Shown here in pieces: positions 37,491 through 52,406 of a stretch of DNA of 64,000 nucleotides. Position numbers and translations under genes: made by a program. Source of the stretch: Candidatus Acetothermia bacterium (lineage in GTDB: Bacteria; Bipolaricaulota; Bipolaricaulia; RBG-16-55-9; DRXL01); NCBI GenBank assembly GCA_016179105.1, contig JACOSB010000035.1, forward strand, positions 9,479 through 73,478, in the 5' to 3' direction. A model generated the notes under the pieces. It made no database searches and had not been told where the DNA came from. It was given only the letters and a program-made list of their open reading frames with translations. The first letter of the stretch is position 1. Each line of letters opens with the position of its first letter.

Positions 37491-38462
37491 TTAGTAAGTC
37501 CGGGTCAATGATCGGTCGGATGCTTTTTCTTGCTCCCGCGTCAGGAAGCGCGCGACGGCCACCATTCCGTTCAAGCCGTGCTTCTCTTCAACCCCGGGAG
37601 AGTAATTGGTCGTTCCATTCACGTCATACGTAATTTTGTGGCCGAAGCGGTCTTCGATGAATTCGATGCCTGCCAAGTCGATCTCGTTCTCGCGCATGAA
37701 CGAGATGTACTGGTCAAGAATTGGGTCATCAAAGCCCTGGCGCAATTCAAAGAGATTTTGACGATCTGCACCTGTCGGCACAGCATCGGCTGTAGGACAG
37801 AACGCGTCTCCCGTCTCACAGCGCTCGGCAGGGCAGAGTTGGAAGCCTTTACTTGTGTCTGATTTTATCGCGTACAAAAATTCGCCGTCGACGATCTCTA
37901 CGCGCGTGATGAAGGGCTCCGCCGGCTCGACGTACTCTTGCAAGAGTGTGATGTGATCTCGTGGTACCTCAAAATCCGCCGAATCTACGTAGAGATCGAA
38001 CGCGTCGAGCGAACGGAAAAGTTGAACGCCGAGTCCCTTTCCCCCGCGATTGTGTTTGGTGATGAAAGGCAGAGGCATCTTGCGAGCTGCTATCTTTAGC
38101 TCTTCACCGTATCCAGAGACGGCAATTGTGTGCGGTGTGCGAATTCCCGCTCGTTGTAGCGCCGCGTATTGGCGTACCTTGCTGATCTCTAGAGCGAATG
38201 CTCGACTGCCGTTGATAACGCGTCGACCATAGCCCTCCAGCCAGGCGATCAACTCACGGTTATAATCGACACTCTCGATATGCCCGCGCGTGTGCGACGA
38301 GGGGCTCATGCGATTCAAGAAAATGCCTTCGGGCGGCTCTGAGTCTAAATCAAAGTGCCCGGTCTGAATGAACCACTCTTCGTGAGGCAAACCCGCGCGA
38401 TCGAGTTCGCGCACCAACGGAGGTAACCAATCCGGATTTTCGTACAGTACATAAATCTTCAT
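37491..38462 (-). CDS. ATP-grasp (RimK/glutathione-synthetase-like) ligase
   Basis: RVING..A..LE.SK..Q, PFITKHNRGGKGLGV, LQEYV, RVE.V.G, AGIEFI, DVNGTTNY. Start 38462 lies 2 nt after the TusA stop. Confidence 0.82.
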   Translation of the reverse strand: MKIYVLYENPDWLPPLVRELDRAGLPHEEWFIQTGHFDLDSEPPEGIFLNRMSPSSHTRGHIESVDYNRELIAWLEGYGRRVINGSRAFALEISKVRQYAALQRAGIRTPHTIAVSGYGEELKIAARKMPLPFITKHNRGGKGLGVQLFRSLDAFDLYVDSADFEVPRDHITLLQEYVEPAEPFITRVEIVDGEFLYAIKSDTSKGFQLCPAERCETGDAFCPTADAVPTGADRQNLFELRQGFDDPILDQYISFMRENEIDLAGIEFIEDRFGHKITYDVNGTTNYSPGVEEKHGLNGMVAVARFLTREQEKASDRSLTRTY

Positions 38463-38464: not shown

Positions 38465-38713
38465 CTACTGACTTCCTTTCTCCAGCAAGATGCGCCATTC
38501 GGCGTCTCCGGTCTTCTCGATTCCTAAAATCTTGTGTCCAGCGTTCTCGGCCCAACGCGGGATTGTCTCCAACGAGAGGGGATAATCCAACAATACTTCT
38601 AGCTGCTCACCCGGTCGTAATGCTTCTATTTTTTTTTTCGTCATCATCTGCGGATAGGGGCAAATCTCGCCTCGCACATCGAGTTTATGCAACGTCTTTG
38701 TAGCTACTGACAT
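38465..38713 (-). CDS. TusA/SirA (YeeD/TsuB-like) sulfur carrier
   Basis: LDVRGEICPYP (CPxP), G..LEVLLDYP, IP.W....GH. AGGAGAG SD before ATG 38713. Confidence 0.92.
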   Translation of the reverse strand: MSVATKTLHKLDVRGEICPYPQMMTKKKIEALRPGEQLEVLLDYPLSLETIPRWAENAGHKILGIEKTGDAEWRILLEKGSQ

Positions 38714-38736
38714 CAAGTCACTCTCCTATAAGTTTC

Positions 38737-39780
38737 TTACCCTTTGATCGTGGCCGGTACTCTCTGTTCGTCCGGCTTCCGCCCTAATTTCTTAAGTTTC
38801 TCGAATCCTTCCATGAACAAGAAGAAGCTCGCGGTCCACGCGCCCAGCACAATGAATGCCGTGGTCGTTAGGCTACTGAGCGCAAGCACGGAAAGCCCCG
38901 TGAAGCCATGCCCAATGTTGCAGCCGCCCGCGACTTGGGCTCCAAAGCCCATGAGAATACCACCCGCGAGCGCTTGCAACGTCCTACTTGCTGACGGAAG
39001 TCTCAGCTTCGCTTCGCCGCAGAGCCGACTTGCAACAAGAGCTCCAACGAATAATCCGATGAGCAAATAGCTGCCCCAGTCCAGCAACTTAAAATCCCCT
39101 GTAGTGATAAACTCAAAGAGTGAGCGAATTGGGCCGGTGATCGAGAGCCCGTAGGCACGCCCGGTTGCGCTCGAACTGAGCCACGCAGCCAAGCTGATGG
39201 CTCCCAGAATGAGCCCTGTTCTTTTCCAGGACCAGCCCTGTTGATATGTTGAAGGACCAGCTCGTAGCAACCAGACGAAGATCGGGACCCCGATGATGGC
39301 GACCAGAATCCAAACATTCAATCCAGTTAAGTTCGCTAACTGTGGAGTTTCTCCGTTGATCTGGATCGTCTGGGCTCGAAGCAGGTCTTGTAATGGCTTG
39401 AGCACGCCGATGTCAGTTGCAACCGTTGAGAGCCCGAATCCCAAGAGCGCTATGAGTGAACCGATCATGCCCTCGCCGACGCGATAGCACGTGCCGCTGC
39501 CGCAGCTGCCCGCGAGCACCATCCCCATTCCGAAGACGAAGCCACCGACAATGTTGGCTTGCCAGAAGAAAGGCGGCACATCGGGCTTGAGGAGATTCAG
39601 CGAAGCAAAGATCTGAACGCCGATGAGTTGGATCAACAGAGCTGTAGCCCACGCACGCAAAAGCGTCGTGTCACGCAACAATAAAACATCGCGAAAGGCC
39701 GTGTTGATGCAGAAGCGCCCGCGCTGAAGTGTATAACCGAGCGCCACTCCTACTACGAGACCCAATAGAACTGCCGACAC
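38737..39780 (-). CDS. YeeE/YedE (TsuA) family thiosulfate/sulfur transporter
   Basis: LQRGRFC, GGFVFGMGMVLAGSC, LMGFGAQVAGGCNIG, with all three family Cys present. GTG start 39780 after GGAGGAG. Confidence 0.92.
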   Translation of the reverse strand: MSAVLLGLVVGVALGYTLQRGRFCINTAFRDVLLLRDTTLLRAWATALLIQLIGVQIFASLNLLKPDVPPFFWQANIVGGFVFGMGMVLAGSCGSGTCYRVGEGMIGSLIALLGFGLSTVATDIGVLKPLQDLLRAQTIQINGETPQLANLTGLNVWILVAIIGVPIFVWLLRAGPSTYQQGWSWKRTGLILGAISLAAWLSSSATGRAYGLSITGPIRSLFEFITTGDFKLLDWGSYLLIGLFVGALVASRLCGEAKLRLPSASRTLQALAGGILMGFGAQVAGGCNIGHGFTGLSVLALSSLTTTAFIVLGAWTASFFLFMEGFEKLKKLGRKPDEQRVPATIKG

Positions 39781-39793
39781 AGTTTCTCCTCCG

Positions 39794-40762
39794 TTACCAG
39801 CACGTGCTCGTATGGCGGTCACCATTGGCAACTACGCCTCCGGTCGCGACAGGGAATTTTTCGTCACTGCCCCATTCAGCCCAAGAAGCATCATAGACGC
39901 GCACATCTGAATAGCCCAACAGTCTCAATTGAAAGTACGCGAGCGCGGCACGCACGCCCGTCTCGCTGTAGGTCAAGATTGTTCTCGATGGACCGATGTT
40001 GCGATAAAGCAATCTAAGCTCGTTCGCTTTCTTAAAGTATCCGTTCAACTCTAACGCTTTTTCGGCGGGCACGAGCAACGCCCCAGGAATATGTCCAATA
40101 TGCTCTCCGTGCGAATGTCCGCTGCCGTAGCCCATTGCGTATTCTTGAGCTGTGCGCGAGTCGATTACTTGTATGCTTGGGTCTGGTAGATGTTCGAGCA
40201 GCCAATCCCCGGTAACGATCTTCTTCGCGTCGGCGCGCAGATTGAGCTTTGAAGGTGTAAGCGAAGGCGTTTCGTTCGTGAGTCTTCCACCCACAGCGGT
40301 CCACGCAGCCAAACCTCCGTCCAAGAGTTTTACATTCTGAAACTGATAGTATTCGAGAATCCAGAAGAGACGCCCCGCCCAGCGGCTTTGCTCGTCATCG
40401 TACAACACAATCGTCATGTCTCTGTCCATAGCAGCCCGTTCGAGCAAAGGCTGAAGCTGTTCGGGCGAGGCGACTAATCTTGGGAAACCTTGGGTCCACG
40501 TGTTTACGTCTGCGTCCCACAGATTCACAGAATTAGGGATATGCTGGAACCGATACTTGAGCGGGCCACGAGCATCAACGATGCGCACTTTAGACGTCTC
40601 ATCCACGCGCTCCTGAAGCCACTGGGCAGTGACGAGCAAATCGGAATTGGGATAGGTAGCACTGAGCGCTCGAAAGCCGTACAGGCCTGAGCCAATCACG
40701 CTCAAGGCCAAACCCGCTTCTACCGTTCTTTTAAGCAGGTCACGTCGCGAAAGAGTGCTCAT
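39794..40762 (-). CDS. Tat-exported tandem-domain rhodanese (sulfurtransferase) homolog with Cys-to-Ser at the active site
   Basis: SRRDLLK twin-arginine motif; IVDAR....Y...HIP, LDGG..AW, IDSR...EY, GHIPGA, YDASW.EW. Active loop reads TYSETGVRA. Confidence 0.88.
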   Translation of the reverse strand: MSTLSRRDLLKRTVEAGLALSVIGSGLYGFRALSATYPNSDLLVTAQWLQERVDETSKVRIVDARGPLKYRFQHIPNSVNLWDADVNTWTQGFPRLVASPEQLQPLLERAAMDRDMTIVLYDDEQSRWAGRLFWILEYYQFQNVKLLDGGLAAWTAVGGRLTNETPSLTPSKLNLRADAKKIVTGDWLLEHLPDPSIQVIDSRTAQEYAMGYGSGHSHGEHIGHIPGALLVPAEKALELNGYFKKANELRLLYRNIGPSRTILTYSETGVRAALAYFQLRLLGYSDVRVYDASWAEWGSDEKFPVATGGVVANGDRHTSTCW

Positions 40763-40785: not shown

Positions 40786-41976
40786 TTAGCGACTACCGCA
40801 GCAGGGCAAGGCGCACGCCTCACCACCGAGGTTGACGATCGGCAGAGAGTTTAACGCGACACCGAGTAAAGCGGGCACTGAGGTCTTTAGAGCTATAGCG
40901 CCTGCAGGCCGCGGCCCGACGTTGATCGTCTTGATGACTTTCTGCTGCGCCACGTCGACGACGACAACTGTGTTCTGGTTTTGAATCGGGACATAGAATT
41001 TCTTCCCGTCGATCGAAAAATCTCCGGTGATGGGGTTGCCACCCTTGGCCAACTCAATCGTGTTGACGATCTTAAGCTCTTTAAGATCGACCACGCTGAT
41101 CGTCCCGCTGTCGCGGTTGATGATAAAGTTAAACTTCGCGTCGAGGGTGAATTCATCCGTAATTGGGCCCTTGCCCAAACCGTCATCCGGCGTGAGCCGT
41201 TTGACCTCCACAGGCGTTAGTGGGTTGCTCACATCGAAGATGCTCTCGGTCCCGCTTGGCGGTTCGACGTTCTCGACGAAGACCCATTTCCCATCGCGCG
41301 AGGCTGTTCCCATAAAGGGTTCGACTTTTTGATCGGCCTTAGTCAGAACTTTCGGTACCGGCACCGTCGCGATCACTTTAAAGCTCGCCAGATCGATGAC
41401 TGAAAAATTGTCGCTATTGCGGTCTGGGCTGTATGAGTACTTCCCGTCGGGCGAGACGGTGATGTCGCAAGGTCCAGCGTTGTTGTAGGTCTTAAAGTTC
41501 GCGATTACTTCGCCAAAGTTTGGCTTGGATGGATCAGCGCCAATTTTAAAATATGTGTCCGTAAATCGATTGGACGAGATCGTGAACTGCCCATCGGGTG
41601 TTGTCTCTGTGTAGTTCTGGGCCGAGTTGGTCGCGATCTTTTTGACGACCTTACCTTGGGCAAGATCAATCACTTGCACCTCTTTGGCTTGGTCCGCTAG
41701 CAGACCAGTCCAGATTAGGCTGGTCGTCTTAAAGTGCTTATTCGCACCGAAACTAAAGTTGCTCCCGGCGGCGATCGTCTTGACGATCGTGTCAGTCACG
41801 CTGTCGATGAGCGTGACGCTGTTATCGCCTGTGTTGGAGATGGCGATCAAATCCTTGGCTTCGCTTTGTGCAAAGCCCAAAGAGGACCGCGAGAGCACCC
41901 AGGCGACACCCGTCGTAGCACTCATAACTTTGAGGAAAGAACGACGTGAGATCGACTTTTCTTTGCTTCGACTCAT
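40786..41976 (-). CDS. Tat-exported YncE/YVTN-like beta-propeller protein with Cys-rich tail
   Basis: SRRSFLK twin-arginine motif, propeller repeats (SPDGKY.Y, TLDAKF, SIDGKKFYV, INVGPRP), C-terminus CALPCCGSR. AAGGAGG SD before ATG 41976. Confidence 0.82.
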   Translation of the reverse strand: MSRSKEKSISRRSFLKVMSATTGVAWVLSRSSLGFAQSEAKDLIAISNTGDNSVTLIDSVTDTIVKTIAAGSNFSFGANKHFKTTSLIWTGLLADQAKEVQVIDLAQGKVVKKIATNSAQNYTETTPDGQFTISSNRFTDTYFKIGADPSKPNFGEVIANFKTYNNAGPCDITVSPDGKYSYSPDRNSDNFSVIDLASFKVIATVPVPKVLTKADQKVEPFMGTASRDGKWVFVENVEPPSGTESIFDVSNPLTPVEVKRLTPDDGLGKGPITDEFTLDAKFNFIINRDSGTISVVDLKELKIVNTIELAKGGNPITGDFSIDGKKFYVPIQNQNTVVVVDVAQQKVIKTINVGPRPAGAIALKTSVPALLGVALNSLPIVNLGGEACALPCCGSR

Positions 41977-41990
41977 ATGCTTGCCTCCTT

Positions 41991-42010
41991 GGCAGTGACG
42001 CCTCACTGCC
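41991..42010 (-). promoter_or_regulatory. Perfect 8-bp hairpin abutting the Shine-Dalgarno of the beta-propeller gene
   Basis: GGCAGTGA-GGCG-TCACTGCC immediately 5' of AAGGAGG. Confidence 0.5.
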
Positions 42011-42095
42011 TGTCTCAAATAATGCTTATCAGCTACTCATCAAGGTGTGCCATTCTCTTGACAACTAGAGAGAGTTTGACTGAATGACGCTATCT

Positions 42096-42166
42096 AGTGT
42101 ACGCGAGCTGCTAGAACTGTATGCAGGTCTGCCTAAATCAGGCAACCCACATACAGCCCGTACACT
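42096..42166 (-). promoter_or_regulatory. Long imperfect hairpin in the sulfur-operon leader
   Basis: Nested pairs AGTGTACG/CGTACACT, CTGTATG/CATACAG and GCCT/AGGC. Confidence 0.5.
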
Positions 42167-42362
42167 TGCACGGAGAGTGGGGAGCTAATTGGGAAAGAAT
42201 AGGGGGGTGAAACAAGAAAGAGCTCTGACGATTGGATTTAGTGTCCCCTTCGGGGATGGTTGAATCCCCTCGCCTTCTAGGCGAAGGAAAGTTTGGCGAA
42301 ATGTGAGCAAAGCGAACATGAGCCGCCGTTGTCGTTTCTGTACTCGTTCTTTGACTTTGCAT
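42138..42362 (-). CDS. Putative upstream ORF / leader peptide ending CKCTGCMWVA
   Basis: 74-aa ORF just downstream of the promoter at 42389-42417. AAAGGA lies 11 nt before the ATG. All three Cys are in the last 10 codons. Confidence 0.35.
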   Translation of the reverse strand: MQSQRTSTETTTAAHVRFAHISPNFPSPRRRGDSTIPEGDTKSNRQSSFLFHPPILSQLAPHSPCKCTGCMWVA

Positions 42363-42388
42363 TTGGACTCAATTCCTTTAGTGGCTCT

Positions 42389-42417
42389 AAGATATCAGAC
42401 TGTGCCTCACTCGTCAA
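42389..42417 (-). promoter_or_regulatory. Sigma70 promoter of the sulfur operon
   Basis: TTGACG-N17-TATCTT with TG extension on the minus strand, just after the SelD-like stop. Confidence 0.6.
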
Positions 42418-42424
42418 GGATTTC

Positions 42425-43825
42425 TCAATTGGCAACTTGAAATGCCGCCGACCAGTCCGAGATAAAATCTTTAGCAGCCGCGGGCACGGTGAGCGTGCCC
42501 TTGTCGGAGCGCTTACGCTCGATATGCCCGATCACTTGCGGATTGTGTCCCAGTTTTTTCAGCTCTAGCTCGATTTGCTGAATGACTTTGGGGCTGGCGA
42601 CGATTGCGAGCGCCCCGTTCGTGCCAGAAGTTCCGTTTGGAATGATAAACTGCTTGGATGCTTCACGGACTAACTTTTCGTAAATTAACGGGATTCGTTC
42701 GAGCCTCACGTCGACGTTCGCGTTCTCGGCCAGCTCTTGAAAAATGTCCAAGCCGGGGCCGGAGAGATCGCCCGTCGCTTTGATATGCTGACTTGGGTCA
42801 AACGCCTCGTTAAGCTTTGGAGAATGTCCATAGATTACTCGGCCGATTTCCAAATTGGGCTTCGAGAGAAGGTCTACGATATGGTCTTTCGCGCAGCGAA
42901 CTTCTTCGGGTTGAAGACCGAGCTTTTGCAAATAGCCATCGCCCATCACCAATCCCTCGATCCAGAGATTGATCGGGGCGAGATCGCCGAAGGGACGATG
43001 GACAAGAATCAGATCGCCCTTCTGAATTTTGTCGTAGAATGTCGGCGTCTGTCGATCCGTCTCAGCGAAGACGGTCGCGCCGAGCAAAAGCGTTTTCTCC
43101 GAGACGGGCTCGCGCTCCACTAGCTCAAAGCCATAGCGACGTGAATGATCTCGGAGATTCTGCAAGATTTTCTGACGCAGCGATTCGTTGGGGGCGGCAT
43201 AGACTGGATGAATCTGGATATTCTGCACGGCTCCGAGTGAGAAAAGATCATTCAAGGCGTTGTTGATCGCGGCGGCAGTCTGCTGCGGTGCTCCCAGGTC
43301 GATTGTGGGGTCGATCAATTGAATCGTGTCGTTATTCGCGATGAGAAAACCCCGTGGCTGGCCACGCTTCTCGCTCAGGAAAAAATCAAAAAGAGCGAAT
43401 TCGTCTTCGGGCGTATAAGCCTCGATCGTGTGCCCCTTCCCGATCATAATTTGCAGTTGCTTCGCCGGGAATTTTTCATAAAGTTTCAGCCACTTTTGTG
43501 CCAGCGCTTCAGGTTGGCGTGTGCGATAGACCGAAGTGACGGTGATCGCGCGCTCCGGCTTGAATTCACTCACTGAGTCTAGCGAAAACTGTGAGAAAGG
43601 CGCGTGTATGCGCTTGATTTGTGGCGCTCCGTAAAGTGGAGAGATGTCGGCGTCTTCGCGCGGAGCGAGGTTAATGCCCCACTGTTTGAGAGTCGGCTTG
43701 ATCTGATGTAGGGCCGGATAGACAACACGTCGTAAATCAATCTTGACCGCGCAGCCGCAGGCCAATTTATGCGGGTTCAGATTTAAATCAGAAAGATATT
43801 TTTGGATCTCATCCCACGTTTGCAT
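42425..43825 (-). CDS. SelD-related (AIR-synthase/PurM superfamily) putative sulfur-metabolism protein
   Basis: NPHKLACGCAVKIDL..VVYPAL (Cys/Lys loop), REDADI, NNALNDLFSLG (cf. SelD NALSDIYAMG), ATGDLSGPG (cf. TDVTGFG). Longer than canonical SelD. Confidence 0.78.
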   Translation of the reverse strand: MQTWDEIQKYLSDLNLNPHKLACGCAVKIDLRRVVYPALHQIKPTLKQWGINLAPREDADISPLYGAPQIKRIHAPFSQFSLDSVSEFKPERAITVTSVYRTRQPEALAQKWLKLYEKFPAKQLQIMIGKGHTIEAYTPEDEFALFDFFLSEKRGQPRGFLIANNDTIQLIDPTIDLGAPQQTAAAINNALNDLFSLGAVQNIQIHPVYAAPNESLRQKILQNLRDHSRRYGFELVEREPVSEKTLLLGATVFAETDRQTPTFYDKIQKGDLILVHRPFGDLAPINLWIEGLVMGDGYLQKLGLQPEEVRCAKDHIVDLLSKPNLEIGRVIYGHSPKLNEAFDPSQHIKATGDLSGPGLDIFQELAENANVDVRLERIPLIYEKLVREASKQFIIPNGTSGTNGALAIVASPKVIQQIELELKKLGHNPQVIGHIERKRSDKGTLTVPAAAKDFISDWSAAFQVAN

Positions 43826-44329
43826 AGAGCAGGCCCCTTTGAACGCTTGACGTTTTTATTGTGTAGATGGAGACAAAGTTAATAGACGTGCCAACGCTCG
43901 AAAAAATCCCTACGAGACGGATGATTGAAGCTTGAAGATGGGGATAGGCTGCGCGTGAAAAACTAACAGAGTGTGTGCCGACAAAGGCAACCACTGGCGA
44001 GTCTGTTAGCTACGACAAAGGCGATCACCGCACATAAAATTTTCCTCCATTTGGAAACTGTGGGCTATTGTATCACGATAGGTTAGGCCTGTCAAGAAAT
44101 TCAGTGAGTGCCGTTAGCCAAAAAAAGTGATCCTGGTACGATGGGAGTGGGACACGTGGGCTTTAGTCGCACTATAGACTTAGCCTACAATTTTCTTGAG
44201 AGATTGGACGCGAGAAGGTGTATGGAGACAAGAACGGGGCTCACTTCTGCAATGGTCACCTTGCCCAACTTAACTTTTTTTGAATTCCCAACTGATAAAA
44301 GATTTAGTGGTCCTAAGGAGGAGTTTCGC

Positions 44330-47300
44330 GTGTGCACCCATTCTCACACCAAAGATGCTAATGAGCCAAACTGTTTAGCTAGACGCACATGGCTATTATT
44401 CAGTGCATTTCTGTTGACAGCGTTGCTAGTCGGAAGTACGGCTCTAGCTGCTCCCGATCTTTCAATCGCTAAGAGCCACAGCGGTAATTTTACCGTAGGA
44501 ATCAATGGGGTTTACACGATCACGGTCACTAACGTCGGACCGGATAGCACCACCGGAGCAATCACTGTGACGGATACCCTACCCACCGGGTTAAACTTTG
44601 TCTCGGGCACCGGCAGCGGTTGGAGCTGCTCGGCCGTCGGTCAAACCGCGACTTGCACGAATGCCGGCCCGCTCGCCGCCAGTGCCACCAGCAACATTAC
44701 CCTCACCGTGAGCGCAAGCGCTGCGGGAAACTTGACCAATATCGCGAATGTCGCCACATCGGGCGACACAAACTCGGCCAACGATACAGCGAGCGATCCC
44801 ACCACCGTGAACGCGAACCCTCAACCCGATTTGCAGATCACCAAGAGCCATAGCGGAAATTTTACGTTGGGGATCAACAGTGTCTACACCCTAACTGTGA
44901 CCAACGTCGGCTCCGCTAGTACCACAGGCACCATCACTGTCACCGATACTCTTCCGACGGGCTTAAGCTTTGTCTCGGGCATTGGCAGTGGATGGAGCTG
45001 TTCTGCGGTTGTGCTGACCGTGACCTGCACAAACCCTGGTCCCTTGGCTCCGAGCGCAACGGCGAGTATCACACTTACTGTCGGCGTGAACGTAGCTGGC
45101 AACGTAACTAACCTCGCCACTGTCTCGACCTCCGGCGATACCAACGCCTCGAACGATACAGCGAGTGACCCCACTACGGTCAATACAACTCCCCAGCCGG
45201 ACTTAGCGATCAGCAAGAGCCACAGCGGGAATTTTACGGTCGGCGTCAACGGGTCCTATACGCTCACTATCACCAACGTCGGCTCGTCAAGTACGAGTGG
45301 CACAATTACCGTGACGGATACACTGCCTACGGGCCTGAGTTTTGTATCCGGGGTCGGAACGAGTTGGAGCTGCGGAGCGGTGGGACTGACGGTCACTTGT
45401 ACCAACCCCGGCCCGCTCGCGCCGAGCGCCACCAGCACGATCACTCTGACGGTGAGCGTCAGTATCTCAGGGAATGTCACCAATATTGCGACGGTTTCTA
45501 CTGCGGGCGACACGAATGCTGCGAATAATACCGCGAGCAATCCCACAGCCATCAACGCCACCCTCCAACCCGACTTATCGGTCAGCAAGACTCACGCTGG
45601 TAACTTCACCCGAGGAGTGAACGGAACCTACACAATCACAGTCACCAACGTCGGTGCAGCCAGTACCACTGGCACGCTCACGGTAACAGACACGCTCCCC
45701 TCGGGTTTGAGCTTCGTCTCGGGCGCCGGTACTGGCTGGACTTGTTCTGCCGTCGGCCAAACCGTCACTTGCACTAACGCCACCGCGCTTGCTCCCAGCA
45801 CTAGCAGCACGATAACTCTCACCGTCAGTGTTAACGTCGCTGGCAATGTCACCAACATTGCGACCGCCGCGGGCTCTGGTGATACGAACCCAGCGAACGA
45901 TACCACCAGCGACCCGACTACCATCAACACTACGGCACAACCTGATCTTTTGATCAGCAAGAGCCACAGTGGGAATTTTACGGTCGGCGTTAACGGGACC
46001 TATACACTCATTGTCACCAACGTCGGCTCCGCCAGTGCGACGGGGACCCTCACGGTCACGGACACGCTCCCGACGGGCTTGAGCTTTGTCTCGGGCACCG
46101 GCAGCGGCTGGAGCTGCTCGGCCGTCGGTCAAACGGTTACCTGTACTAACCCTGGTCCTTTGGCCGTCAGCGCGAGCAGCACGATTACTCTCACCGTCGG
46201 CGTGAACATCGCGGGCGGGGTGACCAACATCGCGACTGTCACCAACTCTGCCGACACCAATCCAGCGAATAATACTGCCAGTGATCCAACGACTATCGTG
46301 GGAGCCACGGGAGTCGATCTCGCAATTACGAAGAGCCACAGCGGGAATTTTTCTGTTGGGGTGAATGGGACCTATACGATCACGGTGACGAACCTCGGGT
46401 CAGCTAGCACCACTGGAACCATCACCGTGACGGACACGCTGCCCACGGGCATGAGCTTTGTTGCTGGGATCGGCAGCGGCTGGACTTGTTCGGCCAGCGG
46501 TCAGACTGTTAGCTGCACTAATCCCGGCCCACTCGCTCCCAGCGCTAGCAGCACCATTACGCTCACTGTCGGCGTCAATGTCGCCGGAAGCCTGACCAAT
46601 ATTGCCACCGTCGCAGCCTCTGGTGATACAAATTCTGCAAACAATACAGCCAGCGATCTTACGATTATCATGGGCACCAATGGGCTTGACCTGACAATCA
46701 CCAAGAGCCATAGCGGAAATTTCACGCTGGGCGTCAACGGGACCTACACACTTACGGTAACGAACGTCGGCTCCGCCAGCACGACGGGGACCATTACTGT
46801 GACAGACACGTTGCCCACGGGTTTGAGCTTTGTTGCTGGGATCGGCAGCGGCTGGACTTGTTCGACTGTTGGCCCAATTGTCACGTGTACGAACCCCGGC
46901 CCCCTCGCTCCCAGCGCTAGCAGCACGATCACTCTAACAGTGAATGTCAGTCTCGCCGGGAATTTGACGAATATAGCAACTGTTTCGGTCTCAGGTGATA
47001 CCAATTCGACGAACAACATCGCCAGTGATGCCACGACTATCAATGCGACGCCTCAACCCGACCTTTCGATCAGCAAGAGTCACAGCGCGAGTTTTATAGC
47101 CGGGACCGATGGGACCTATACGATCACGGTGACGAACGTGGGCTCCGCCAGCACGACGGGGACCATTACCGTGACGGACACGTTGCCCACGGGCATGAGC
47201 TTTGTTGCTGGGATCGGCAGCGGCTGGACTTGTTCGGCTGTCGGGCAAATTGTCACGTGTACGAACCCCGGCCCACTCGCTCCTAGTGCCACCAGCACTA

Positions 47301-49498
47301 TTACTCTCACGGTGGGTGTCAACGTCGCGGGCAGCCTGACCAATATCGCCACCGTCGCAGCCTTAGGCGATATGAATTCCGCCAACAATATTACGAGTGA
47401 CTCTACTACTGTAAACGCGGCAACTCACCCGGATCTGGCGATAAGCAAGACTCACAGTGGGAATTTTACGGTGGGAATCAATGGGACGTTTACCCTCGCG
47501 GTCACCAACGTGGGCTCGGCCAGCACGACGGGAACGATCACTCTGACGGACACACTGCCTACGGGGTTGGGGTTCGTTTCAGGGACAGGCACGAATTGGA
47601 GCTGTGGAGCTTCCGGGCAGATCATCACTTGCACCAACTCTGGTCCTTTGGCACCAAGCGCGGTCAGTAATCTCACTCTTACAGTGAGTGTGAATATTGC
47701 CGGCAATCTCACGAACACTGCAACCATCTCAACCCAAGATGATACCAATGCCACCAACAACACGGCCACTGATCCGGTGACCATTAACGCTACAGCTCAG
47801 CCAGATCTTTCGATCAGCAAGAGCCACAGCGGAAACTTTACGGTGGGAGTCAATGGAACATACACACTCACCGTGACGAACATGGGCTCCGCGAGTACCA
47901 CCGGAACGATCACCGTCACGGACTCGTTGCCCGCGGGGTTGAGCTTCGTCTCCGGCATAGGTAGCGCCTGGACGTGCAACGCTGTCTCTAAGACCGTCAC
48001 GTGTACCAATCCCGGCCCGCTCGCGCCCAGCGCCACGAGCACAGCCACACTGACCGTCGGCGTGAGTGTCTCGGGCAATCTGACCAACATCGCCACCGTC
48101 GCCTCCACGGGAGATGCCAATGCGACGAACAATACTGCCAGCGATCTCACTACGGTGAACGCAGCCCTGGAACCCGATCTCTCTCTCAGCAAGAGCCACA
48201 GCGGGAATTTTACCGTGGGACTCGTCGGGACCTATACACTCACGGTAACCAATGTCGGCTCGGCGAGCACAACCGGAGTCATCACTGTGACCGATACGTT
48301 GCCATTGGGATTGAGCTTCATATCAGGGACGGGCGCGGGCTGGAATTGCAGTGCGATGAGCTTAACGATTATTTGTACCAATCCGGGGCCGCTCGCACCG
48401 AGCACCAGCAGCACGATCTCTCTTGTGGTCGGCGTGAGCATCGCCGGGAACTGGACGAATATCGCCACGGTCTCGACCGCCGGCGATACGAATCCCTCCA
48501 ACAACGCAGCCAACGATCCCACGATCGTCAACGCCTCGCCTCAACCCGACTTGCAGATCACCAAGAGCCATAACGGGAATTTTACGGTGGGAACGACCGG
48601 CTCGTATGCGCTGACGATCACTAACGTCGGTGCCGCCAGCACGACAAGTCTGATCACTGTGGTCGATACGTTGCCGACGGGCCTGAGCTTTTTGGCAGGC
48701 ACCGGCAGCGGCTGGACCTGCGGAGCCGTGGCCCAGGTTATCACTTGCACCAATCCCGGCCCGCTCGCGTCCACTGCCGCAAGCAATCTCACACTGACAG
48801 TCGGAGTGAGTCTTTCCGGGGGCCTCACCAACGTCGCGACGGCCGCGACTCTCGGAGATACGAACCCGGTCAACAATTTCACGACGGACCCGACGATCGT
48901 CATGCCCGCGAGCAACGTTCTGATCCGCGCGACCATGCGGGCTGATGTGCTAACGCCCTTCATCGCTTACACTGTTATTCTGACTAACGCTGGCACGCAC
49001 GATCAGACGGACAACCCGGGCAACGAATTTGAAGCGCCGATTCCTCCCGGAACTCAGTTTATCCCGGAGCAGAGCAGTGCGACGTCCGGGACGCTCACGT
49101 TTGACGCGGCGACCAACAAAGCCCTTTGGAACGGCTCCATCCCAATCGGCCAGAGCGTGACGATCAGCATCGTCGTCAATGCTCAGACAATCCTGGGAGC
49201 GGCTAGCCAACCTTCCGATCGGCAAGCGAATGCCCTTCCTGTTTCGCTCGTATTTTTGAGCCCGTTGGTAGCCGGTCTTGCTTTAGTATTGAGGAAGAGA
49301 CGCGGGTGGGTCTTAGTTATGCTGCTCTTTTTTTTGGCTACGGCGAGCACCGGATGCACATTGTTCAACTTCAATCATCCGTTGGTCTGCAACCAAGGAC
49401 AAGTGCACTACGATTCGGACGGCAACGGAATCAACGATTCGGTCGAATTGACCAACGACCCGCGAATGCCTCAGCCCGGCACGCCAACGTGTATCTGA
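44330..49498 (+). CDS. Giant surface protein with 12 DUF11-like Ig repeats and a C-terminal membrane anchor
   Basis: GTG start 44330 after AAGGAGGAG, then a signal peptide. Repeats read PDL.I.KSHSGNF..G.NG.Y...VTNVG...VTDTLP.GL.F....W.C......C. TM segments near the C-terminus. Confidence 0.88.
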   Translation: MCTHSHTKDANEPNCLARRTWLLFSAFLLTALLVGSTALAAPDLSIAKSHSGNFTVGINGVYTITVTNVGPDSTTGAITVTDTLPTGLNFVSGTGSGWSCSAVGQTATCTNAGPLAASATSNITLTVSASAAGNLTNIANVATSGDTNSANDTASDPTTVNANPQPDLQITKSHSGNFTLGINSVYTLTVTNVGSASTTGTITVTDTLPTGLSFVSGIGSGWSCSAVVLTVTCTNPGPLAPSATASITLTVGVNVAGNVTNLATVSTSGDTNASNDTASDPTTVNTTPQPDLAISKSHSGNFTVGVNGSYTLTITNVGSSSTSGTITVTDTLPTGLSFVSGVGTSWSCGAVGLTVTCTNPGPLAPSATSTITLTVSVSISGNVTNIATVSTAGDTNAANNTASNPTAINATLQPDLSVSKTHAGNFTRGVNGTYTITVTNVGAASTTGTLTVTDTLPSGLSFVSGAGTGWTCSAVGQTVTCTNATALAPSTSSTITLTVSVNVAGNVTNIATAAGSGDTNPANDTTSDPTTINTTAQPDLLISKSHSGNFTVGVNGTYTLIVTNVGSASATGTLTVTDTLPTGLSFVSGTGSGWSCSAVGQTVTCTNPGPLAVSASSTITLTVGVNIAGGVTNIATVTNSADTNPANNTASDPTTIVGATGVDLAITKSHSGNFSVGVNGTYTITVTNLGSASTTGTITVTDTLPTGMSFVAGIGSGWTCSASGQTVSCTNPGPLAPSASSTITLTVGVNVAGSLTNIATVAASGDTNSANNTASDLTIIMGTNGLDLTITKSHSGNFTLGVNGTYTLTVTNVGSASTTGTITVTDTLPTGLSFVAGIGSGWTCSTVGPIVTCTNPGPLAPSASSTITLTVNVSLAGNLTNIATVSVSGDTNSTNNIASDATTINATPQPDLSISKSHSASFIAGTDGTYTITVTNVGSASTTGTITVTDTLPTGMSFVAGIGSGWTCSAVGQIVTCTNPGPLAPSATSTITLTVGVNVAGSLTNIATVAALGDMNSANNITSDSTTVNAATHPDLAISKTHSGNFTVGINGTFTLAVTNVGSASTTGTITLTDTLPTGLGFVSGTGTNWSCGASGQIITCTNSGPLAPSAVSNLTLTVSVNIAGNLTNTATISTQDDTNATNNTATDPVTINATAQPDLSISKSHSGNFTVGVNGTYTLTVTNMGSASTTGTITVTDSLPAGLSFVSGIGSAWTCNAVSKTVTCTNPGPLAPSATSTATLTVGVSVSGNLTNIATVASTGDANATNNTASDLTTVNAALEPDLSLSKSHSGNFTVGLVGTYTLTVTNVGSASTTGVITVTDTLPLGLSFISGTGAGWNCSAMSLTIICTNPGPLAPSTSSTISLVVGVSIAGNWTNIATVSTAGDTNPSNNAANDPTIVNASPQPDLQITKSHNGNFTVGTTGSYALTITNVGAASTTSLITVVDTLPTGLSFLAGTGSGWTCGAVAQVITCTNPGPLASTAASNLTLTVGVSLSGGLTNVATAATLGDTNPVNNFTTDPTIVMPASNVLIRATMRADVLTPFIAYTVILTNAGTHDQTDNPGNEFEAPIPPGTQFIPEQSSATSGTLTFDAATNKALWNGSIPIGQSVTISIVVNAQTILGAASQPSDRQANALPVSLVFLSPLVAGLALVLRKRRGWVLVMLLFFLATASTGCTLFNFNHPLVCNQGQVHYDSDGNGINDSVELTNDPRMPQPGTPTCI
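44453..48916 (+). repeat. Twelve intragenic tandem repeats of exactly 372 nt (124 aa)
   Basis: KSH/KTH codons at 44471, 44843, 45215, 45587 ... 48563; 48563-44471 = 11 x 372. Confidence 0.92.
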
Positions 49499-50059: not shown

Positions 50060-50980
50060 TCATCGAATCATCGCTTGTCCTGTCGGGAACGAGCTCGCCT
50101 GATTGTTCATCGTATAGACATAATGATCCTTGGCACTGGTCGGTATCTGGCCTGCCAGCGGTTTTAGGGTGAACGGTGCGGGGCTGTCGTCCGGATCAGG
50201 CTCGACTGAGATCACTGCCGTCGCACCCGAGAGATCGATCGGGAAGGTTAAGCCGCTCGGGCTGTTCTTTAAAAAATCCTCGCCGGGGAAGGGTGGACCG
50301 GGTTGGGAGCTGCTGAAGGGTGCCGCTTCGTCGGCGGCGACTGGATTTCGGAATCTTCCGGTAGAGACGGGCACACCGTTGAAGACGACCCAGCCTTCGT
50401 ATTTCCAGCCCTCGGGCAGCGCTGGCAACTGGAGCCCCTGCGAGGGACTCCCGGTCGCAATATCGAGAAACCAGATACCGCTATTTTCATTGCTGTTGGT
50501 CCCATCAGTGGGAGTAGCGAGAATGTACTTTCCTGAGGCTCCGGCAAAATTGTTACCCAAGGCTTGCGTCGCAGCTACGGTCAAGCTGGCCGATCCGTTG
50601 GTGACATTTCCTGCTGCATAATGAGTTTTCGCCGGGATAACATCCGTGTCACCCGCGGGCTCGATCGTGATCACGATCGCCGTGGCCGGCCGTAGGTCCA
50701 CCTGAGTCATAAAGTCACCGTTGGGAATGGGTTGGCCCGTCAGTGTGACCGGCTTTCCCTGTTGATCGACGTTAAACTTTCCCGTCGAGATAGGCTGTCC
50801 GTGAATGATCGCCCACCCCTCGTAGTGGAAACCGTTTTGTAGCGGCTGAAACCCTTGAAGATCGAGGTGCAGTGTTCGTCCCGGCTCTGGCACGGGGGGA
50901 GTGAGTTCTGTGCATCCGCTCAGGCCAAGCAAACTTATCAAAATTAGAGCAATGGGTGAGAAATGGGTAACTCTTGCCAT
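50060..50980 (-). CDS. Lipoprotein of the RskA-C-related 'anti-sigma factor'-annotated family
   Basis: Lipobox LGLSG-C. Two internal copies of YEGW...G.P.STG.F and ISVEP(.)D/ITIEP.GD. Confidence 0.7.
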   Translation of the reverse strand: MARVTHFSPIALILISLLGLSGCTELTPPVPEPGRTLHLDLQGFQPLQNGFHYEGWAIIHGQPISTGKFNVDQQGKPVTLTGQPIPNGDFMTQVDLRPATAIVITIEPAGDTDVIPAKTHYAAGNVTNGSASLTVAATQALGNNFAGASGKYILATPTDGTNSNENSGIWFLDIATGSPSQGLQLPALPEGWKYEGWVVFNGVPVSTGRFRNPVAADEAAPFSSSQPGPPFPGEDFLKNSPSGLTFPIDLSGATAVISVEPDPDDSPAPFTLKPLAGQIPTSAKDHYVYTMNNQASSFPTGQAMIR

Positions 50981-51043
50981 TTGACTGTCTCCTTCTTACT
51001 TTTATCAAAGAGTACGTTCCAAAGCGTTATCTCTGTATTAACT

Positions 51044-51067
51044 TACGAATCGAGCTGGTCGTTGGAT
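51044..51067 (-). promoter_or_regulatory. Candidate ECF-sigma promoter (copy 2)
   Basis: ATCC-N16-CGTA on the minus strand upstream of the lipoprotein gene. Same motif and spacing as upstream of the sigma gene. Confidence 0.55.
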
Positions 51068-51078
51068 CTCTTCTCGTT

Positions 51079-51831: not shown

Positions 51832-52406
51832 ACCCGGACAACCCCTTCTTGAATGAGAACAACTCTCAGTTTTTGCAGCCCCAAGCGAACTCTCGTCTTG
51901 ACCGTGCCCAACGGGATATTCAGTTGCGCGGCAATCTGGGATTGTGTCAAGCCCTGAAAATAGGCGAGATCGATCACTTCACGCTGGTCGGCGGACACGG
52001 CAGCTAGGGCTTTTGTGACAGCCACGCGGCGGGCTTCATCCTGCATCTGTTCATCGATGCTCAGCACTTTGTCCGGGATTTCTTCCAGCGGAAAGTCTGC
52101 ATCTTCGGCTAACAGCGTCTGTTTATGCCGCCGACGACGGCGCAGTTCATCGATCGCTCGATAGTGCGCAATCCGCATGAGCCACGTCACAAACGATCCA
52201 CGCTCCGGCTCGAAGAGATTCGCTTTGCACCAGAGTGTCACGAAGACCTCCTGCACGATTTCTTCGGCCGTCTCGCGCCCCAGCATCCGGGCCGCCAAAG
52301 AGTAAATGATGTTCGCATAGCGGTCATAAAGAATCTCAAACGCATCTTGGTTGCCCTCGCGAATCTTTCTCACCAAAATCAGGTCTTCCCGCTCGAACTC
52401 ATTCAC
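51828..52406 (-). CDS. ECF RNA polymerase sigma factor (SigK-like)
   Basis: AFEILYDRY, AEEIVQEVF..LW, F.TWL..IA..RAID, LAYFQGLTQS.IA..L..PLGTVKTR. Overlaps the anti-sigma start. Confidence 0.94.
   Translation of the reverse strand: MNEFEREDLILVRKIREGNQDAFEILYDRYANIIYSLAARMLGRETAEEIVQEVFVTLWCKANLFEPERGSFVTWLMRIAHYRAIDELRRRRRHKQTLLAEDADFPLEEIPDKVLSIDEQMQDEARRVAVTKALAAVSADQREVIDLAYFQGLTQSQIAAQLNIPLGTVKTRVRLGLQKLRVVLIQEGVVRV

What the first reader, a model, noticed from the sequence alone, without database searches (positions are those of the whole stretch)
42425..43825. Non-canonical SelD homolog resembling the archaeal SelD-like sulfur family, in a bacterium
Seen: 466 aa with ACGCAVKIDL..VVYPAL rather than the canonical GCGCK/UGUK loop, no in-frame TGA, and retained Asp-containing motifs (REDADI, NALNDLFSLG, GDLSGPG). 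Established: a SelD-like family separate from selenophosphate synthetase is described mainly from Sulfolobales/Thermoproteales, linked to SirA/TusA-type sulfur genes and proposed to make thiophosphate. Inference: this is a bacterial member of that family with matching sulfur-gene context. No selA, selB, selU or tRNA-Sec was recognised in this window.
Basis: partly seen in the sequence, partly recalled or inferred. Interest (0 to 1): 0.75.

Follow-up and report, generated by a model that had tools for sequence, protein, structure and literature searches.

The report
Bacterial SelD-like putative sulfur-activating enzyme
A groundwater bacterium (Candidatus Bipolaricaulota/Acetothermia) carries a clear member of the small, already catalogued "SelD-like" family, relatives of selenophosphate synthetase thought to activate sulfur instead of selenium, inside a sulfur import/transfer gene cluster; nobody has tested the family's chemistry.

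Summary
Window 42425-43825 (minus strand) is an intact 466-aa ORF with the quoted motifs. The protein scores 453.5 bits against NCBIfam NF038049 "SelD-related putative sulfur metabolism protein" (cutoff 250) and only 24-36 bits against canonical SelD models. Its predicted fold (pLDDT 93.7) is closest to solved selenophosphate synthetases. The contig is bacterial: AlaRS is 99% identical to one from Ca. Acetothermia, and the source is groundwater. The downstream same-strand genes are a TAT-exported beta-propeller, an exported rhodanese-like protein, a YeeE/TsuA-type importer, TusA and an ATP-grasp protein. TusA lies within 2 kb of the SelD-like gene in 62 of 81 related loci. The family is not confined to hyperthermophilic Crenarchaeota, as papers up to 2026 still state. 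It also occurs in Bipolaricaulota, Fraserbacteria, Acidobacteriota, Thaumarchaeota and others. NCBI already auto-names such bacterial proteins, so this is a new member of a known kind. New details: a ~95-aa family-specific insertion carrying an invariant GKGH motif; a CysK/M-like PLP enzyme directly upstream in 9 of 15 loci of the window's clade; and no Sec-containing members. Thiophosphate synthesis remains the best mechanism but is unproven.

The parts
42425..43825 (-). SelD-like (NF038049) CDS, 466 aa. N-terminal G24-C25-x-x-K28 loop; R56/D58; a ~95-aa family-specific insertion (residues ~62-160) with invariant G129-K130-G131-H132; N164-N-D166; N189/N192/D193; D353-LSGPG; T399-x-G-T-N-G404.
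44067..44095 (-). Promoter-like site TTGACA-17-TACAAT (11 of 12 matches, TG-extended), ~240 nt upstream of the SelD-like ATG.
   Evidence: consensus match only
43979..44022 (-). Two copies of GCCTTTGTCG, 34 nt apart, in the SelD-like 5' region. The same pair with the same spacing occurs in the 80%-identical relative L082. Candidate operator.
   Evidence: 3 matches in the window against 0.15 expected; 4 in L082 against 0.03 expected
42389..42417 (-). Promoter-like site TTGACG-17-TATCTT directly after the SelD-like stop codon, conserved in L082. Probable start of the downstream operon transcript.
42043..42277 (-). Conserved ~235-nt non-coding block (candidate long 5' leader of the beta-propeller operon). 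It is more conserved between the window and L082 than expected from 80% protein identity. No Rfam match.
   Evidence: (z -2.67)
40786..42018 (-). Exported YVTN/YncE-type beta-propeller. TAT motif SRRSFLK. The true start is probably the ATG at 41976.
39794..40762 (-). Exported (TAT motif SRRDLLK) two-domain rhodanese-like protein. The position of the catalytic Cys is Ser (YSETGVRA).
38737..39831 (-). YeeE/TsuA-type (Sulf_transp) membrane importer, with the conserved Cys motifs FCINTAFRD and GGCNIGHG.
   Evidence: (TsuA model 281 bits, below the cutoff of 400)
38465..38716 (-). TusA-family sulfur carrier, with the CPxP cysteine (GEICPYP).
37491..38459 (-). RimK-like ATP-grasp protein whose gene abuts tusA. 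It recurs beside SelD-like or TusA in 5 of 15 loci of the window's clade.

Best explanation
The gene encodes a bona fide member of the SelD-like family: a PurM-superfamily, ATP-dependent enzyme that keeps the selenophosphate-synthetase catalytic apparatus. That apparatus is a mobile N-terminal Gly-Cys-x-x-Lys loop plus the Asp/Asn metal- and ATP-binding residues. The protein also has a family-specific inserted sub-domain carrying an invariant GKGH strand.

Most likely it works in sulfur trafficking, not selenium trafficking. Sulfur taken up by the YeeE/TsuA-type importer encoded in the same cluster (thiosulfate or another sulfane source) is loaded as a persulfide onto the TusA carrier. TusA hands it to Cys25 of the SelD-like enzyme, which uses ATP to phosphorylate it. 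The product would be thiophosphate, or an enzyme-bound equivalent, serving as an activated sulfur donor. In most sister Bipolaricaulota loci the probable consumer is a CysK/CysM-like PLP enzyme encoded directly upstream, which suggests assimilation into cysteine. That gene is absent from this window.

Shown here: family membership, fold, residue conservation, bacterial origin, conserved gene neighbourhood. Inferred: the sulfur substrate, the TusA-to-Cys25 transfer, thiophosphate as the product, and its consumer.
For: Family and fold: NF038049 at 453.5 bits against a cutoff of 250. The AF2 model has pLDDT 93.7. Foldseek ranks 1-13 are all selenophosphate synthetases, E 1.6e-17 to 6.4e-14, ahead of ThiL, HypE and PurM. 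The family profile hits human SEPHS1 at 3.7e-8.

Catalytic residues: hhalign against E. coli SelD pairs N189 with N87, D193 with D91 and D353 with D227. G24, C25 and K28 are 80/80, with the same Cys-to-Lys spacing as E. coli C17-K20.

Sulfur context: TusA is within 2 kb in 62 of 81 loci spanning both domains. YeeE-type genes occur in 32 loci, rhodanese in 28 and DsrE-like in 12. At least one sulfur-trafficking neighbour lies within 5 kb in 71 of 81 loci. The six-gene order is retained in an 80%-identical relative and in a 49%-identical one.

Assimilatory link: a CysK/M-family PALP gene lies directly upstream on the same strand in 9 of 15 loci of the window's clade, with a 4-nt overlap in two of them. 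Sulfonate/nitrate-type ABC importers occur in two of those loci.

Precedents: YeeE with the TusA-like YeeD imports and decomposes thiosulfate (PMC11073785). Mammalian SPS2 can make thiophosphate from sulfide, and the PLP enzyme SecS then makes Cys from it (PMC8300636).

Against selenium: no member has Sec at position 25. All sequenced Crenarchaeota that carry the family lack known Se traits (PMC4210487).
Against: No biochemical or genetic data exist for any family member. The product is inferred only by analogy.

In this window the SelD-like gene is separated from the sulfur operon by 406 bp containing its own promoter-like site. TusA is 3.7 kb away, not adjacent. No CysK/M-like, DsrE or acylphosphatase gene occurs anywhere in the 64 kb.

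The exported rhodanese has Ser in place of the catalytic Cys, so that step of a classical persulfide relay is missing.

The N-terminal loop cannot be aligned to SelD with statistical significance, and two registers are possible.

The TusA paralogue scores highest, although below cutoff, against the selenium-linked YedF model.

The rest of the genome is unseen, so a Sec or selenouridine pathway cannot be excluded.
Confidence: 0.55

Rival explanations
1. It acts on protein-bound sulfur and releases no free thiophosphate, in the manner of HypE. Using ATP, it activates a group carried on its own Cys25 or on TusA (a persulfide, thiosulfonate or thiocarboxylate), for example to release or transfer sulfur or to build a thio-acyl or thiocarbamate species. 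Acyl-phosphate-handling partners assist: acylphosphatase in archaea and the ATP-grasp protein in this bacterial clade.
For: HypE is a close structural relative (Foldseek 5.8e-13) and modifies a group on its own cysteine. An acylphosphatase is adjacent in 29 loci and fused in 10. The same domain type heads HypF, the partner of HypE; the acylphosphatase neighbour hits TIGR00143 hypF at 43.6 bits. ATP-grasp enzymes, present in 5 of 15 window-clade loci, form acyl-phosphates. TusA sits immediately beside the gene in most loci. Li et al. offered an acyl-phosphate model as their Model 1.
Against: The reactive Cys is in the SelD-type N-terminal loop with the essential Lys, not at the C-terminus as in HypE. 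SelD structures rank above HypE. Neither acylphosphatase nor ATP-grasp is universal: Sulfolobales and Thaumarchaeota mostly lack both. No carbamoyl-phosphate or HypF-like transferase genes were seen nearby.
Confidence: 0.2
2. It is a divergent but genuine selenium enzyme. It makes selenophosphate, or handles selenium delivered by YedE/YedF-like proteins, for an unrecognised selenium-utilisation trait.
For: All SelD catalytic residues are retained. In canonical selenium metabolism selD is often linked to YedE/YedF, which are homologues of the YeeE and TusA proteins here. The window's TusA scores best against the YedF model: 61.4 bits against a cutoff of 79. Li et al. state that a selenium role cannot be completely excluded.
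Against: Canonical SelD models score 24-36 bits, far below their cutoffs. The transporter is much closer to the thiosulfate importer TsuA (281 bits) than to the selenium YedE/FdhT model (115 bits). Neighbours are sulfur enzymes and carriers: rhodanese, DsrE and CysK/M-like. No Sec form of the enzyme was found in more than 80 sequences. Carriers among complete crenarchaeal genomes lack every known Se trait. No Se genes occur in the window.
Confidence: 0.12
3. It is a small-molecule kinase or cyclo-ligase of the PurM superfamily (ThiL- or PurM-like) or a non-catalytic paralogue, and the sulfur-gene neighbourhood is coincidental.
For: ThiL and PurM are also strong structural matches (6.8e-14 and below). 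In this window a 406-bp gap and a separate promoter-like site divide the gene from the sulfur operon. Two short contigs of divergent subfamilies show no sulfur genes.
Against: The invariant Cys-x-x-Lys loop is a feature of SelD and not of other PurM-superfamily families (PMC4210487). TusA lies within 2 kb in 62 of 81 loci across both domains, which is far beyond coincidence. ThiL scores 24.5 bits against a cutoff of 184. Invariance of all metal- and ATP-binding residues argues against a pseudo-enzyme.
Confidence: 0.06

Closest known systems
SelD-like family of Li et al. 2014 (BMC Genomics 15:908, PMC4210487); NCBIfam NF038049 'SelD-related putative sulfur metabolism protein'
   Same: The window protein matches the full-length HMM far above cutoff. 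It has the Cys-x-x-Lys loop, the Asp/Asn ligands, a length of ~460-480 aa, and a TusA (SirA-like) and rhodanese neighbourhood.
   Different: The host is a mesophilic groundwater bacterium (Bipolaricaulota), not a hyperthermophilic crenarchaeon. There is no fused or adjacent acylphosphatase. A second cysteine (C23, giving a CGC motif) is specific to the bacterial clade plus Baldrarchaeota and Methanoperedens. The partners are an exported beta-propeller, an exported Cys-less rhodanese, YeeE, TusA and an ATP-grasp protein. In sister loci a CysK/M-like PLP enzyme is also present.
Canonical selenophosphate synthetase SelD/SPS (E. coli b1764; A. aeolicus 2ZOD/2YYE; human SEPHS1 3FD5)
   Same: It is the best structural match. 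The PurM fold is shared, as are the N-terminal Gly-Cys/Sec-x-x-Lys loop and the equivalents of E. coli D51, D68, N87, D91 and D227.
   Different: Identity is only 15-18% and SelD HMM scores are far below cutoff. About 91 extra residues lie between the D51 and D68 equivalents; they fold like half of a PurM N-domain and carry GKGH. The resident position of SelD's AGGHSI strand lacks that motif. There are no Sec forms and no Sec or selenouridine genes nearby.
Mammalian SPS2 acting on sulfide (thiophosphate leading to Cys-tRNA[Ser]Sec via SecS)
   Same: It shows that a SelD-type active site can make thiophosphate, and that a PLP enzyme can use thiophosphate to make cysteine (PMC8300636).
   Different: That is a side reaction under selenium shortage on a tRNA-bound substrate. 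Here it would be the dedicated reaction, with a CysK/M-type enzyme as the proposed consumer. This is untested.
YeeE(TsuA)/YeeD(TsuB) thiosulfate uptake system
   Same: A Sulf_transp membrane protein is encoded next to a small TusA-fold protein with a reactive cysteine (PMC11073785).
   Different: Both window proteins score below the equivalog cutoffs (281 against 400; 51 against 147.5). They are embedded in a larger cluster with exported proteins and the SelD-like gene.
HypE/HypF hydrogenase maturation pair
   Same: A PurM-superfamily ATPase working on a cysteine-bound group is partnered with an acylphosphatase-type domain.
   Different: The reactive Cys is at the N-terminus, not the C-terminus. 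There are no hydrogenase genes. The window has no acylphosphatase.

Membership tests
SelD-like (NF038049 / Li et al. 2014) | Scores above the curated whole-protein cutoff of the family HMM over its full length | tested here: met
   453.5 bits against a cutoff of 250, residues 7-457 on profile positions 7-456 of 465
SelD-like (NF038049 / Li et al. 2014) | [quoted passage not shown] | tested here: met
   G24-C25-A-V-K28. G24, C25 and K28 are 80/80 in the family. The register relative to E. coli C17/K20 rests on spacing and invariance, not on a significant alignment.
SelD-like (NF038049 / Li et al. 2014) | Retention of the SelD Asp/Asn metal- and ATP-binding residues | tested here: met
   hhalign pairs N189 with N87, D193 with D91 and D353 with D227. 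D58 with D51 and D166 with D68 rest on motif matches. All are conserved in 79-80 of 80 sequences.
SelD-like (NF038049 / Li et al. 2014) | Forms a branch separate from SelD, ThiL, HypE and PurM | tested here: met
   SelD models score 24-36 bits and ThiL 24.5 bits, all far below cutoff. In the exhaustive search, SelD-pattern proteins score at most ~56 bits against 110-673 bits for family members. The window groups with other family members in an NJ tree (no outgroup, no bootstrap).
SelD-like (NF038049 / Li et al. 2014) | SirA/TusA-type sulfur carrier and other sulfur genes nearby | tested here: met
   TusA, a YeeE-type importer and a rhodanese-like protein are downstream on the same strand. TusA is within 2 kb in 62 of 81 family loci.
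SelD-like (NF038049 / Li et al. 2014) | Host genome lacks known selenium-utilisation traits (selA/selB/selC, selU/ybbB, yqeB/yqeC) | tested here: inconclusive
   None is present in the 64-kb window. The rest of the genome was not available.
SelD-like (NF038049 / Li et al. 2014) | Acylphosphatase domain fused or adjacent (Thermoproteales and Desulfurococcales-type members only; not universal) | tested here: not met
   There is no acylphosphatase anywhere in the window (tblastn) and none in 15 loci of the window's clade. It is also absent from core Sulfolobales loci, so it does not define the family.
SelD-like (NF038049 / Li et al. 2014) | Makes thiophosphate from ATP and a sulfur donor (proposed activity) | not testable with these tools
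   No experimental report was found. It needs enzymology.
Canonical selenophosphate synthetase SelD (TIGR00476 / NF010705) | Scores above the curated cutoff of the SelD equivalog models | tested here: not met
   24.1 bits against 125, and 36.1 bits against 291. E. coli SelD is hit at E 0.62 by the family profile.
Canonical selenophosphate synthetase SelD (TIGR00476 / NF010705) | Compact N-domain, with ~17 residues between the first two metal-binding Asp | tested here: not met
   The D58-to-D166 spacing is 108 residues here and 98-137 across the family, against 17 in E. coli.
ThiL / HypE / PurM | Scores above family cutoffs, or is the best structural match | tested here: not met
   ThiL scores 24.5 bits against a cutoff of 184. 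Foldseek ranks these families below all SelD structures.

The most novel reading that the evidence does not exclude
SelD-like enzymes are dedicated thiophosphate synthases. In the bacterial clade their product is consumed by the translationally coupled CysK/CysM-like PLP enzyme to make cysteine, or a cysteine-derived thiol finished by the ATP-grasp ligase. This would be a sulfur counterpart of selenocysteine biosynthesis that assimilates sulfane sulfur or thiosulfate without free sulfide. It would make thiophosphate a genuine cellular metabolite in bacteria, ammonia-oxidising archaea and Crenarchaeota.
Probability: 0.2. Interest if true: 0.85.

Novelty: new member of a known kind. Interest (0 to 1): 0.5.

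Why it matters
Whether cells ever make thiophosphate on purpose has been open since the family was described in 2014. Reviews up to 2026 still present the family as a peculiarity of hyperthermophilic sulfur-reducing Crenarchaeota that is absent from bacteria.

This locus and its relatives show the family in mesophilic bacteria and in ammonia-oxidising archaea. It is consistently tied to TusA, and in bacteria to a cysteine-synthase-like enzyme and to sulfur importers. That points to sulfur assimilation or trafficking, not to dissimilatory sulfur reduction.

A mesophilic bacterial representative with a defined partner set (TusA, the PALP enzyme, the ATP-grasp protein) should be easier to express in E. 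coli and assay than the hyperthermophilic archaeal proteins. The hypothesis therefore becomes directly testable. The gene itself is not a new kind of thing, since a curated HMM already names it.

Tried and rejected
- Pfam and single-sequence PDB searches of the protein gave nothing useful. Only the NCBIfam model, a family profile and a fold search were informative.
- A pairwise alignment of the N-terminal loop to E. coli SelD is not significant (score 31, best shuffle 34). It prefers the register C23-G-C25 on C17-G-C19. I preferred the C25/K28 register because C23 is Cys in only 12 of 80 sequences.
- I looked for Sec-containing family members among apparently N-terminally truncated proteins (P0042, P0044). 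Both read through with TGC codons, so the truncations are gene-calling artefacts.
- I looked for acylphosphatase, CysK/M-like, DsrE and ThiF genes in the window and found none.
- The contexts of two divergent subfamilies (P0279, P0315) were on short contigs and showed no sulfur genes, so they were not informative.
- Rfam searches of the conserved leader found nothing.
- No RNA-seq run holds the gene, so there is no expression evidence.
- Cluster-member names gave no taxonomy. Taxonomy came from AlaRS.
- My first HMM neighbour count undercounted genes that overlap the SelD-like start by a few bases. It was corrected.
- The reading of the insertion as a duplicated half N-domain rests on a fold match at E ~2e-4 and a weak sequence match (hhalign E 0.017; 6 of 500 shuffles).
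Full report
**1. Observation.**
The window has an ORF at 42425..43825 on the minus strand, 466 aa with an ATG start. AAAGGGG lies 8 nt upstream of the ATG, and a near-consensus promoter-like site (TTGACA-17-TACAAT) lies about 240 nt upstream. Homologues of 464-475 aa align over the full length, so the gene model is sound. ARAGORN finds no tRNA and Rfam finds nothing at gathering thresholds. Pfam scans of 36 ORFs show no SelA, SelB or SelU domains.

**2. Family.**
Pfam has no model that hits the protein. NCBIfam NF038049, "SelD-related putative sulfur metabolism protein" (SelD_rel_HyperS), matches end to end at 453.5 bits against a cutoff of 250. Canonical SelD models give 36.1 bits (cutoff 291) and 24.1 bits (cutoff 125), and ThiL gives 24.5 bits (cutoff 184).

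A 35-sequence family profile searched against 1.84 billion representative proteins finds only 195 hits at E <= 1e-3 and 94 at E <= 1e-30. Full-architecture members score 110-673 bits. Proteins of 300-390 aa that match only the C-terminal two thirds, which is the SelD pattern, score at most about 56 bits. The family is therefore small and discrete, and the window protein lies well inside it.

**3. Structure and residues.**
AlphaFold2 on the family alignment gives pLDDT 93.7 and pTM 0.93. Foldseek against PDB ranks selenophosphate synthetases 1-13 (5L16, 3FD5, 3U0O, 2ZOD, 2YYE; E 1.6e-17 to 6.4e-14). ThiL, HypE and PurM follow. Target-normalised TM-scores are 0.6-0.7 but query-normalised scores are about 0.5, because part of the protein has no counterpart in SelD.

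I fetched E. coli SelD. hhalign pairs window residues 185-440 with E. coli 83-337, giving N189=N87, D193=D91 and D353=D227. By motif, R56-E-D58 matches R49-D-D51 and N164-N-D166 matches T66-T-D68.

Across 80 genome-derived sequences, G24, C25, K28, N189, N192 and D193 are 80/80, and D58, D166 and D353 are 79/80. The loop G24-C25-x-x-K28 has the spacing of E. coli G16-C17-x-x-K20. A pairwise alignment of the N-terminus is not significant, however, and prefers another register. C23 is Cys in only 12 of 80 sequences: the bacterial clade, Baldrarchaeota, Methanoperedens and one Thermofilaceae sequence.

**4. The insertion.**
The spacing between the first two metal-binding Asp is 108 residues here, 98-137 in the family and 17 in E. 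coli. The inserted ~95 residues contain G129-K130-G131-H132, conserved 80/80/78/80. K130 and H132 remain invariant even in divergent subfamilies of 23-30% identity.

Modelled alone, the insertion folds as beta-beta-alpha-beta-beta with pLDDT 89.6. Its best PDB matches are the N-domains of ThiL, HypE, PurM and SelD (E about 2e-4, TMq up to 0.64). hhalign and a local alignment both pair window 124-141 (LQIMIGKGHTIEAYTPED) with E. coli 132-149 (AGIALAGGHSIDAPEPIF). The statistics are weak: E 0.017, and 6 of 500 shuffles reach the pairwise score. In the main alignment, the resident position of that E. coli strand is GFELVEREPVSEKT, which lacks the motif.

My reading, marked as inference: the second half of the N-domain was partially duplicated internally. 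The inserted copy keeps the GGHS-type strand and the resident copy has lost it.

**5. Organism.**
The AlaRS gene on the same contig (8937-11570) is 99% and 88% identical to proteins named "Candidatus Acetothermia bacterium". The next hits are from Bipolaricaulota. A Mur ligase, an ECF sigma/anti-sigma pair, GluRS/GlnRS and a his operon are also present. The runs that hold the gene are groundwater metagenomes. The host is therefore a bacterium from a non-thermal habitat.

**6. Distribution.**
A scan of one genome per GTDB species found 95 loci, of which 80 were kept. Eight are bacterial: Bipolaricaulota or Bipolaricaulia (five), Fraserbacteria, Acidobacteriota and one unclassified bacterium. 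Many are Thaumarchaeota/Nitrososphaerales, including Nitrosopumilales. Others are Halobacteria MAGs, Methanoperedens, Hydrothermarchaeales and Baldrarchaeota, besides Sulfolobales, Desulfurococcales-type and Thermoproteales archaea.

A midpoint-rooted NJ tree, with no bootstrap and no outgroup, shows a coherent Bipolaricaulota/Fraserbacteria clade that contains the window. The Acidobacteriota sequence sits inside the Thaumarchaeota clade.

Li et al. 2014 reported the family as exclusive to Sulfolobales and Thermoproteales and absent from bacteria. Reviews from 2022 and 2026 repeat the archaeal picture. NCBI already names bacterial MAG proteins with this family name (P0049). I found no paper on the family in bacteria or Thaumarchaeota, and no experimental work on it.

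**7. Gene neighbourhood in the window.**
Downstream on the same strand lie, in order:
- a TAT-exported YVTN/YncE-type beta-propeller;
- a TAT-exported two-domain rhodanese-like protein;
- a YeeE/TsuA-type Sulf_transp importer;
- TusA, with its CPxP cysteine;
- a RimK-like ATP-grasp protein that abuts tusA.

An 80%-identical relative keeps exactly this order and then loses synteny. A 49%-identical Bipolaricaulota locus (L004) has the same set with only about 22 nt between SelD-like and the propeller gene. In the window the gap is 406 bp, with a promoter-like site and a conserved ~235-nt block. Here the gene is probably a separate transcription unit beside the operon.

**8. Gene neighbourhood across the family.**
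With profile HMMs over 81 loci:

| Neighbour | Loci |
|---|---|
| TusA within 2 kb | 62 |
| TusA within 5 kb | 66 |
| YeeE-type importer | 32 |
| Rhodanese | 28 |
| Acylphosphatase, adjacent | 29 |
| Acylphosphatase, fused (all Thermoproteales) | 10 |
| DsrE-like | 12 |
| Beta-propeller (8 Thaumarchaeota, 3 bacteria) | 11 |
| ThiF/MoeB | 4 |
| At least one sulfur-trafficking neighbour within 5 kb | 71 |

Neighbour identities were confirmed.

In the window's own clade (15 loci including six extra contigs), every partner found is on the same strand:

| Partner | Loci of 15 |
|---|---|
| TusA | 12 |
| CysK/CysM-family PALP enzyme, directly upstream | 9 |
| Rhodanese | 7 |
| Beta-propeller | 6 |
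| ATP-grasp | 5 |
| YeeE-type importer | 4 |
| DsrE-like | 4 |
| Acylphosphatase | 0 |

The PALP enzyme scores 287-302 bits against the cysKM model, below its cutoff of 344. Its gene overlaps the SelD-like start by 4 nt in two loci. The count of 9 is 8 plus L027. Sulfonate/nitrate-type ABC importers occur in two loci. The window has no PALP, DsrE, ThiF or acylphosphatase gene.

**9. Mechanism.**
The retained SelD apparatus argues for ATP-dependent phosphoryl transfer to a chalcogen held at or near Cys25. The near-universal TusA neighbour argues that the chalcogen is sulfane sulfur delivered as a persulfide. The importer resembles the thiosulfate importer TsuA (281 bits) much more than the selenium YedE/FdhT model (115 bits). 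YeeE with the TusA-like YeeD is an experimentally shown thiosulfate uptake and decomposition pair (PMC11073785).

A SelD-type site can make thiophosphate. Mammalian SPS2 does so from sulfide, and the PLP enzyme SecS then forms Cys-tRNA (PMC8300636). The translationally coupled CysK/M-like PLP enzyme in sister loci fits the same logic for free cysteine.

The family also occurs in ammonia-oxidising archaea and groundwater bacteria. That favours assimilation or trafficking over the dissimilatory sulfur reduction proposed in 2014.

No member has Sec at position 25. Complete crenarchaeal carriers lack Se traits.

I put 0.55 on this sulfur-activation reading with thiophosphate as product, 0.2 on a HypE-like protein-bound chemistry, 0.12 on a genuine selenium role and 0.06 on an unrelated activity.

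**10. Weak points.**
- Nothing is experimentally known about any family member.
- The window lacks the PALP partner, and TusA is 3.7 kb away.
- The exported rhodanese has Ser where the catalytic Cys should be, as does its 39%-identical orthologue in L004. It is probably a binding module and not a sulfurtransferase.
- TusA scores best, although below cutoff, against the selenium-linked YedF model.
- MAG taxonomic labels of related loci may contain binning errors. The window's own assignment rests on genes on the same contig.

**11. Verdict.**
It is a new bacterial member of a known, curated, functionally untested family. It carries useful new context: a broad distribution, the PALP and ATP-grasp partners, and the GKGH insertion. 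It is of moderate interest as an entry point to the question of whether cells make thiophosphate.

Noticed in passing
window 42043-42277 (minus strand), within the 42019-42424 gap: A ~235-nt non-coding block between the SelD-like stop and the beta-propeller start is nearly identical in the 80%-identical relative L082. It is preceded by a conserved promoter-like site (42417-42389). The window has ~95 extra nt that L082 lacks. More distant relatives (L003, L004) have only ~22-26 nt at this position. The block folds with z = -2.67, includes a long hairpin, and has no Rfam match. It is a candidate long 5' leader or cis-regulatory RNA of the sulfur operon.
   Followed up: partly
window 43979-43988 and 44013-44022 (minus strand); also 23481-23490; L082 9732, 9766, 11478, 17527: The 10-mer GCCTTTGTCG occurs twice, 34 nt apart, between the promoter-like site and the SelD-like start. 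The same pair with the same spacing occurs in L082, which has a third copy in the leader before the beta-propeller gene. There are 3 matches in the window against 0.15 expected, and 4 in L082 against 0.03 expected. It is a candidate operator that co-regulates the SelD-like gene and the sulfur operon.
   Followed up: partly
window 39794-40762 (minus strand): The TAT-exported two-domain rhodanese has Ser at the catalytic-Cys position (YSETGVRA). Its 39%-identical L004 orthologue does too (YSNTGLRA). Rhodaneses next to SelD-like genes in other clades keep the Cys. The L082 orthologue is split into two ORFs at that point.
   Followed up: partly
window 43346-43642 (SelD-like residues 62-160): The family-specific insertion folds on its own like half of a PurM-type N-domain. 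Its invariant GKGH(S/T)I strand resembles SelD's AGGHSI strand, which the resident position has lost. This suggests an internal partial duplication, so that the monomer might mimic part of the PurM-type dimer.
   Followed up: partly
loci L009-L016, L018, L019, L021, L026, L042 (Thaumarchaeota/Nitrososphaerales, including Nitrosopumilales): Ammonia-oxidising archaea carry the SelD-like gene with TusA (13 of 13 loci), rhodanese (12 of 13), a beta-propeller (8 of 13) and YeeE (7 of 13). These organisms are not known for dissimilatory sulfur metabolism. No literature on this was found.
   Followed up: partly
proteins P0267-P0344 (alignment A4): At least two divergent full-length subfamilies exist (23-31% identity, 110-320 bits). 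They keep G-C-x-x-K, K-G-H, N-D, D-x-S-G-x-G and T-N-G. Two short contigs show no sulfur genes beside them. Their biology is unknown.
   Followed up: partly
window 44108-49498 (plus strand): A 1796-aa protein made of about 14 tandem ~115-aa repeats (DUF11/CLIPPER type in the L082 counterpart), with a C-terminal membrane anchor. It is divergently transcribed from the SelD-like gene. The relative L082 has an 1110-aa version in the same position.
   Followed up: no
window 50060-52406 (minus strand): An ECF sigma factor, a zf-HC2/RskA anti-sigma factor and a further RskA_C protein form a cluster that is syntenic with L082.
   Followed up: no
window 16068-19224 (minus strand): Two class-I Glu/Gln-type tRNA synthetase genes lie side by side. 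One has GlnRS-type C-terminal domains and the other a bacterial GluRS-type anticodon domain.
   Followed up: no
L088 3001 and L089 3001 (proteins P0042, P0044): Gene callers truncated these SelD-like genes by ~50 codons. The upstream frame reads through the CGC loop without any ATG/GTG/TTG start after the preceding PALP gene. This suggests an unusual start codon or tight coupling with the PALP gene.
   Followed up: partly
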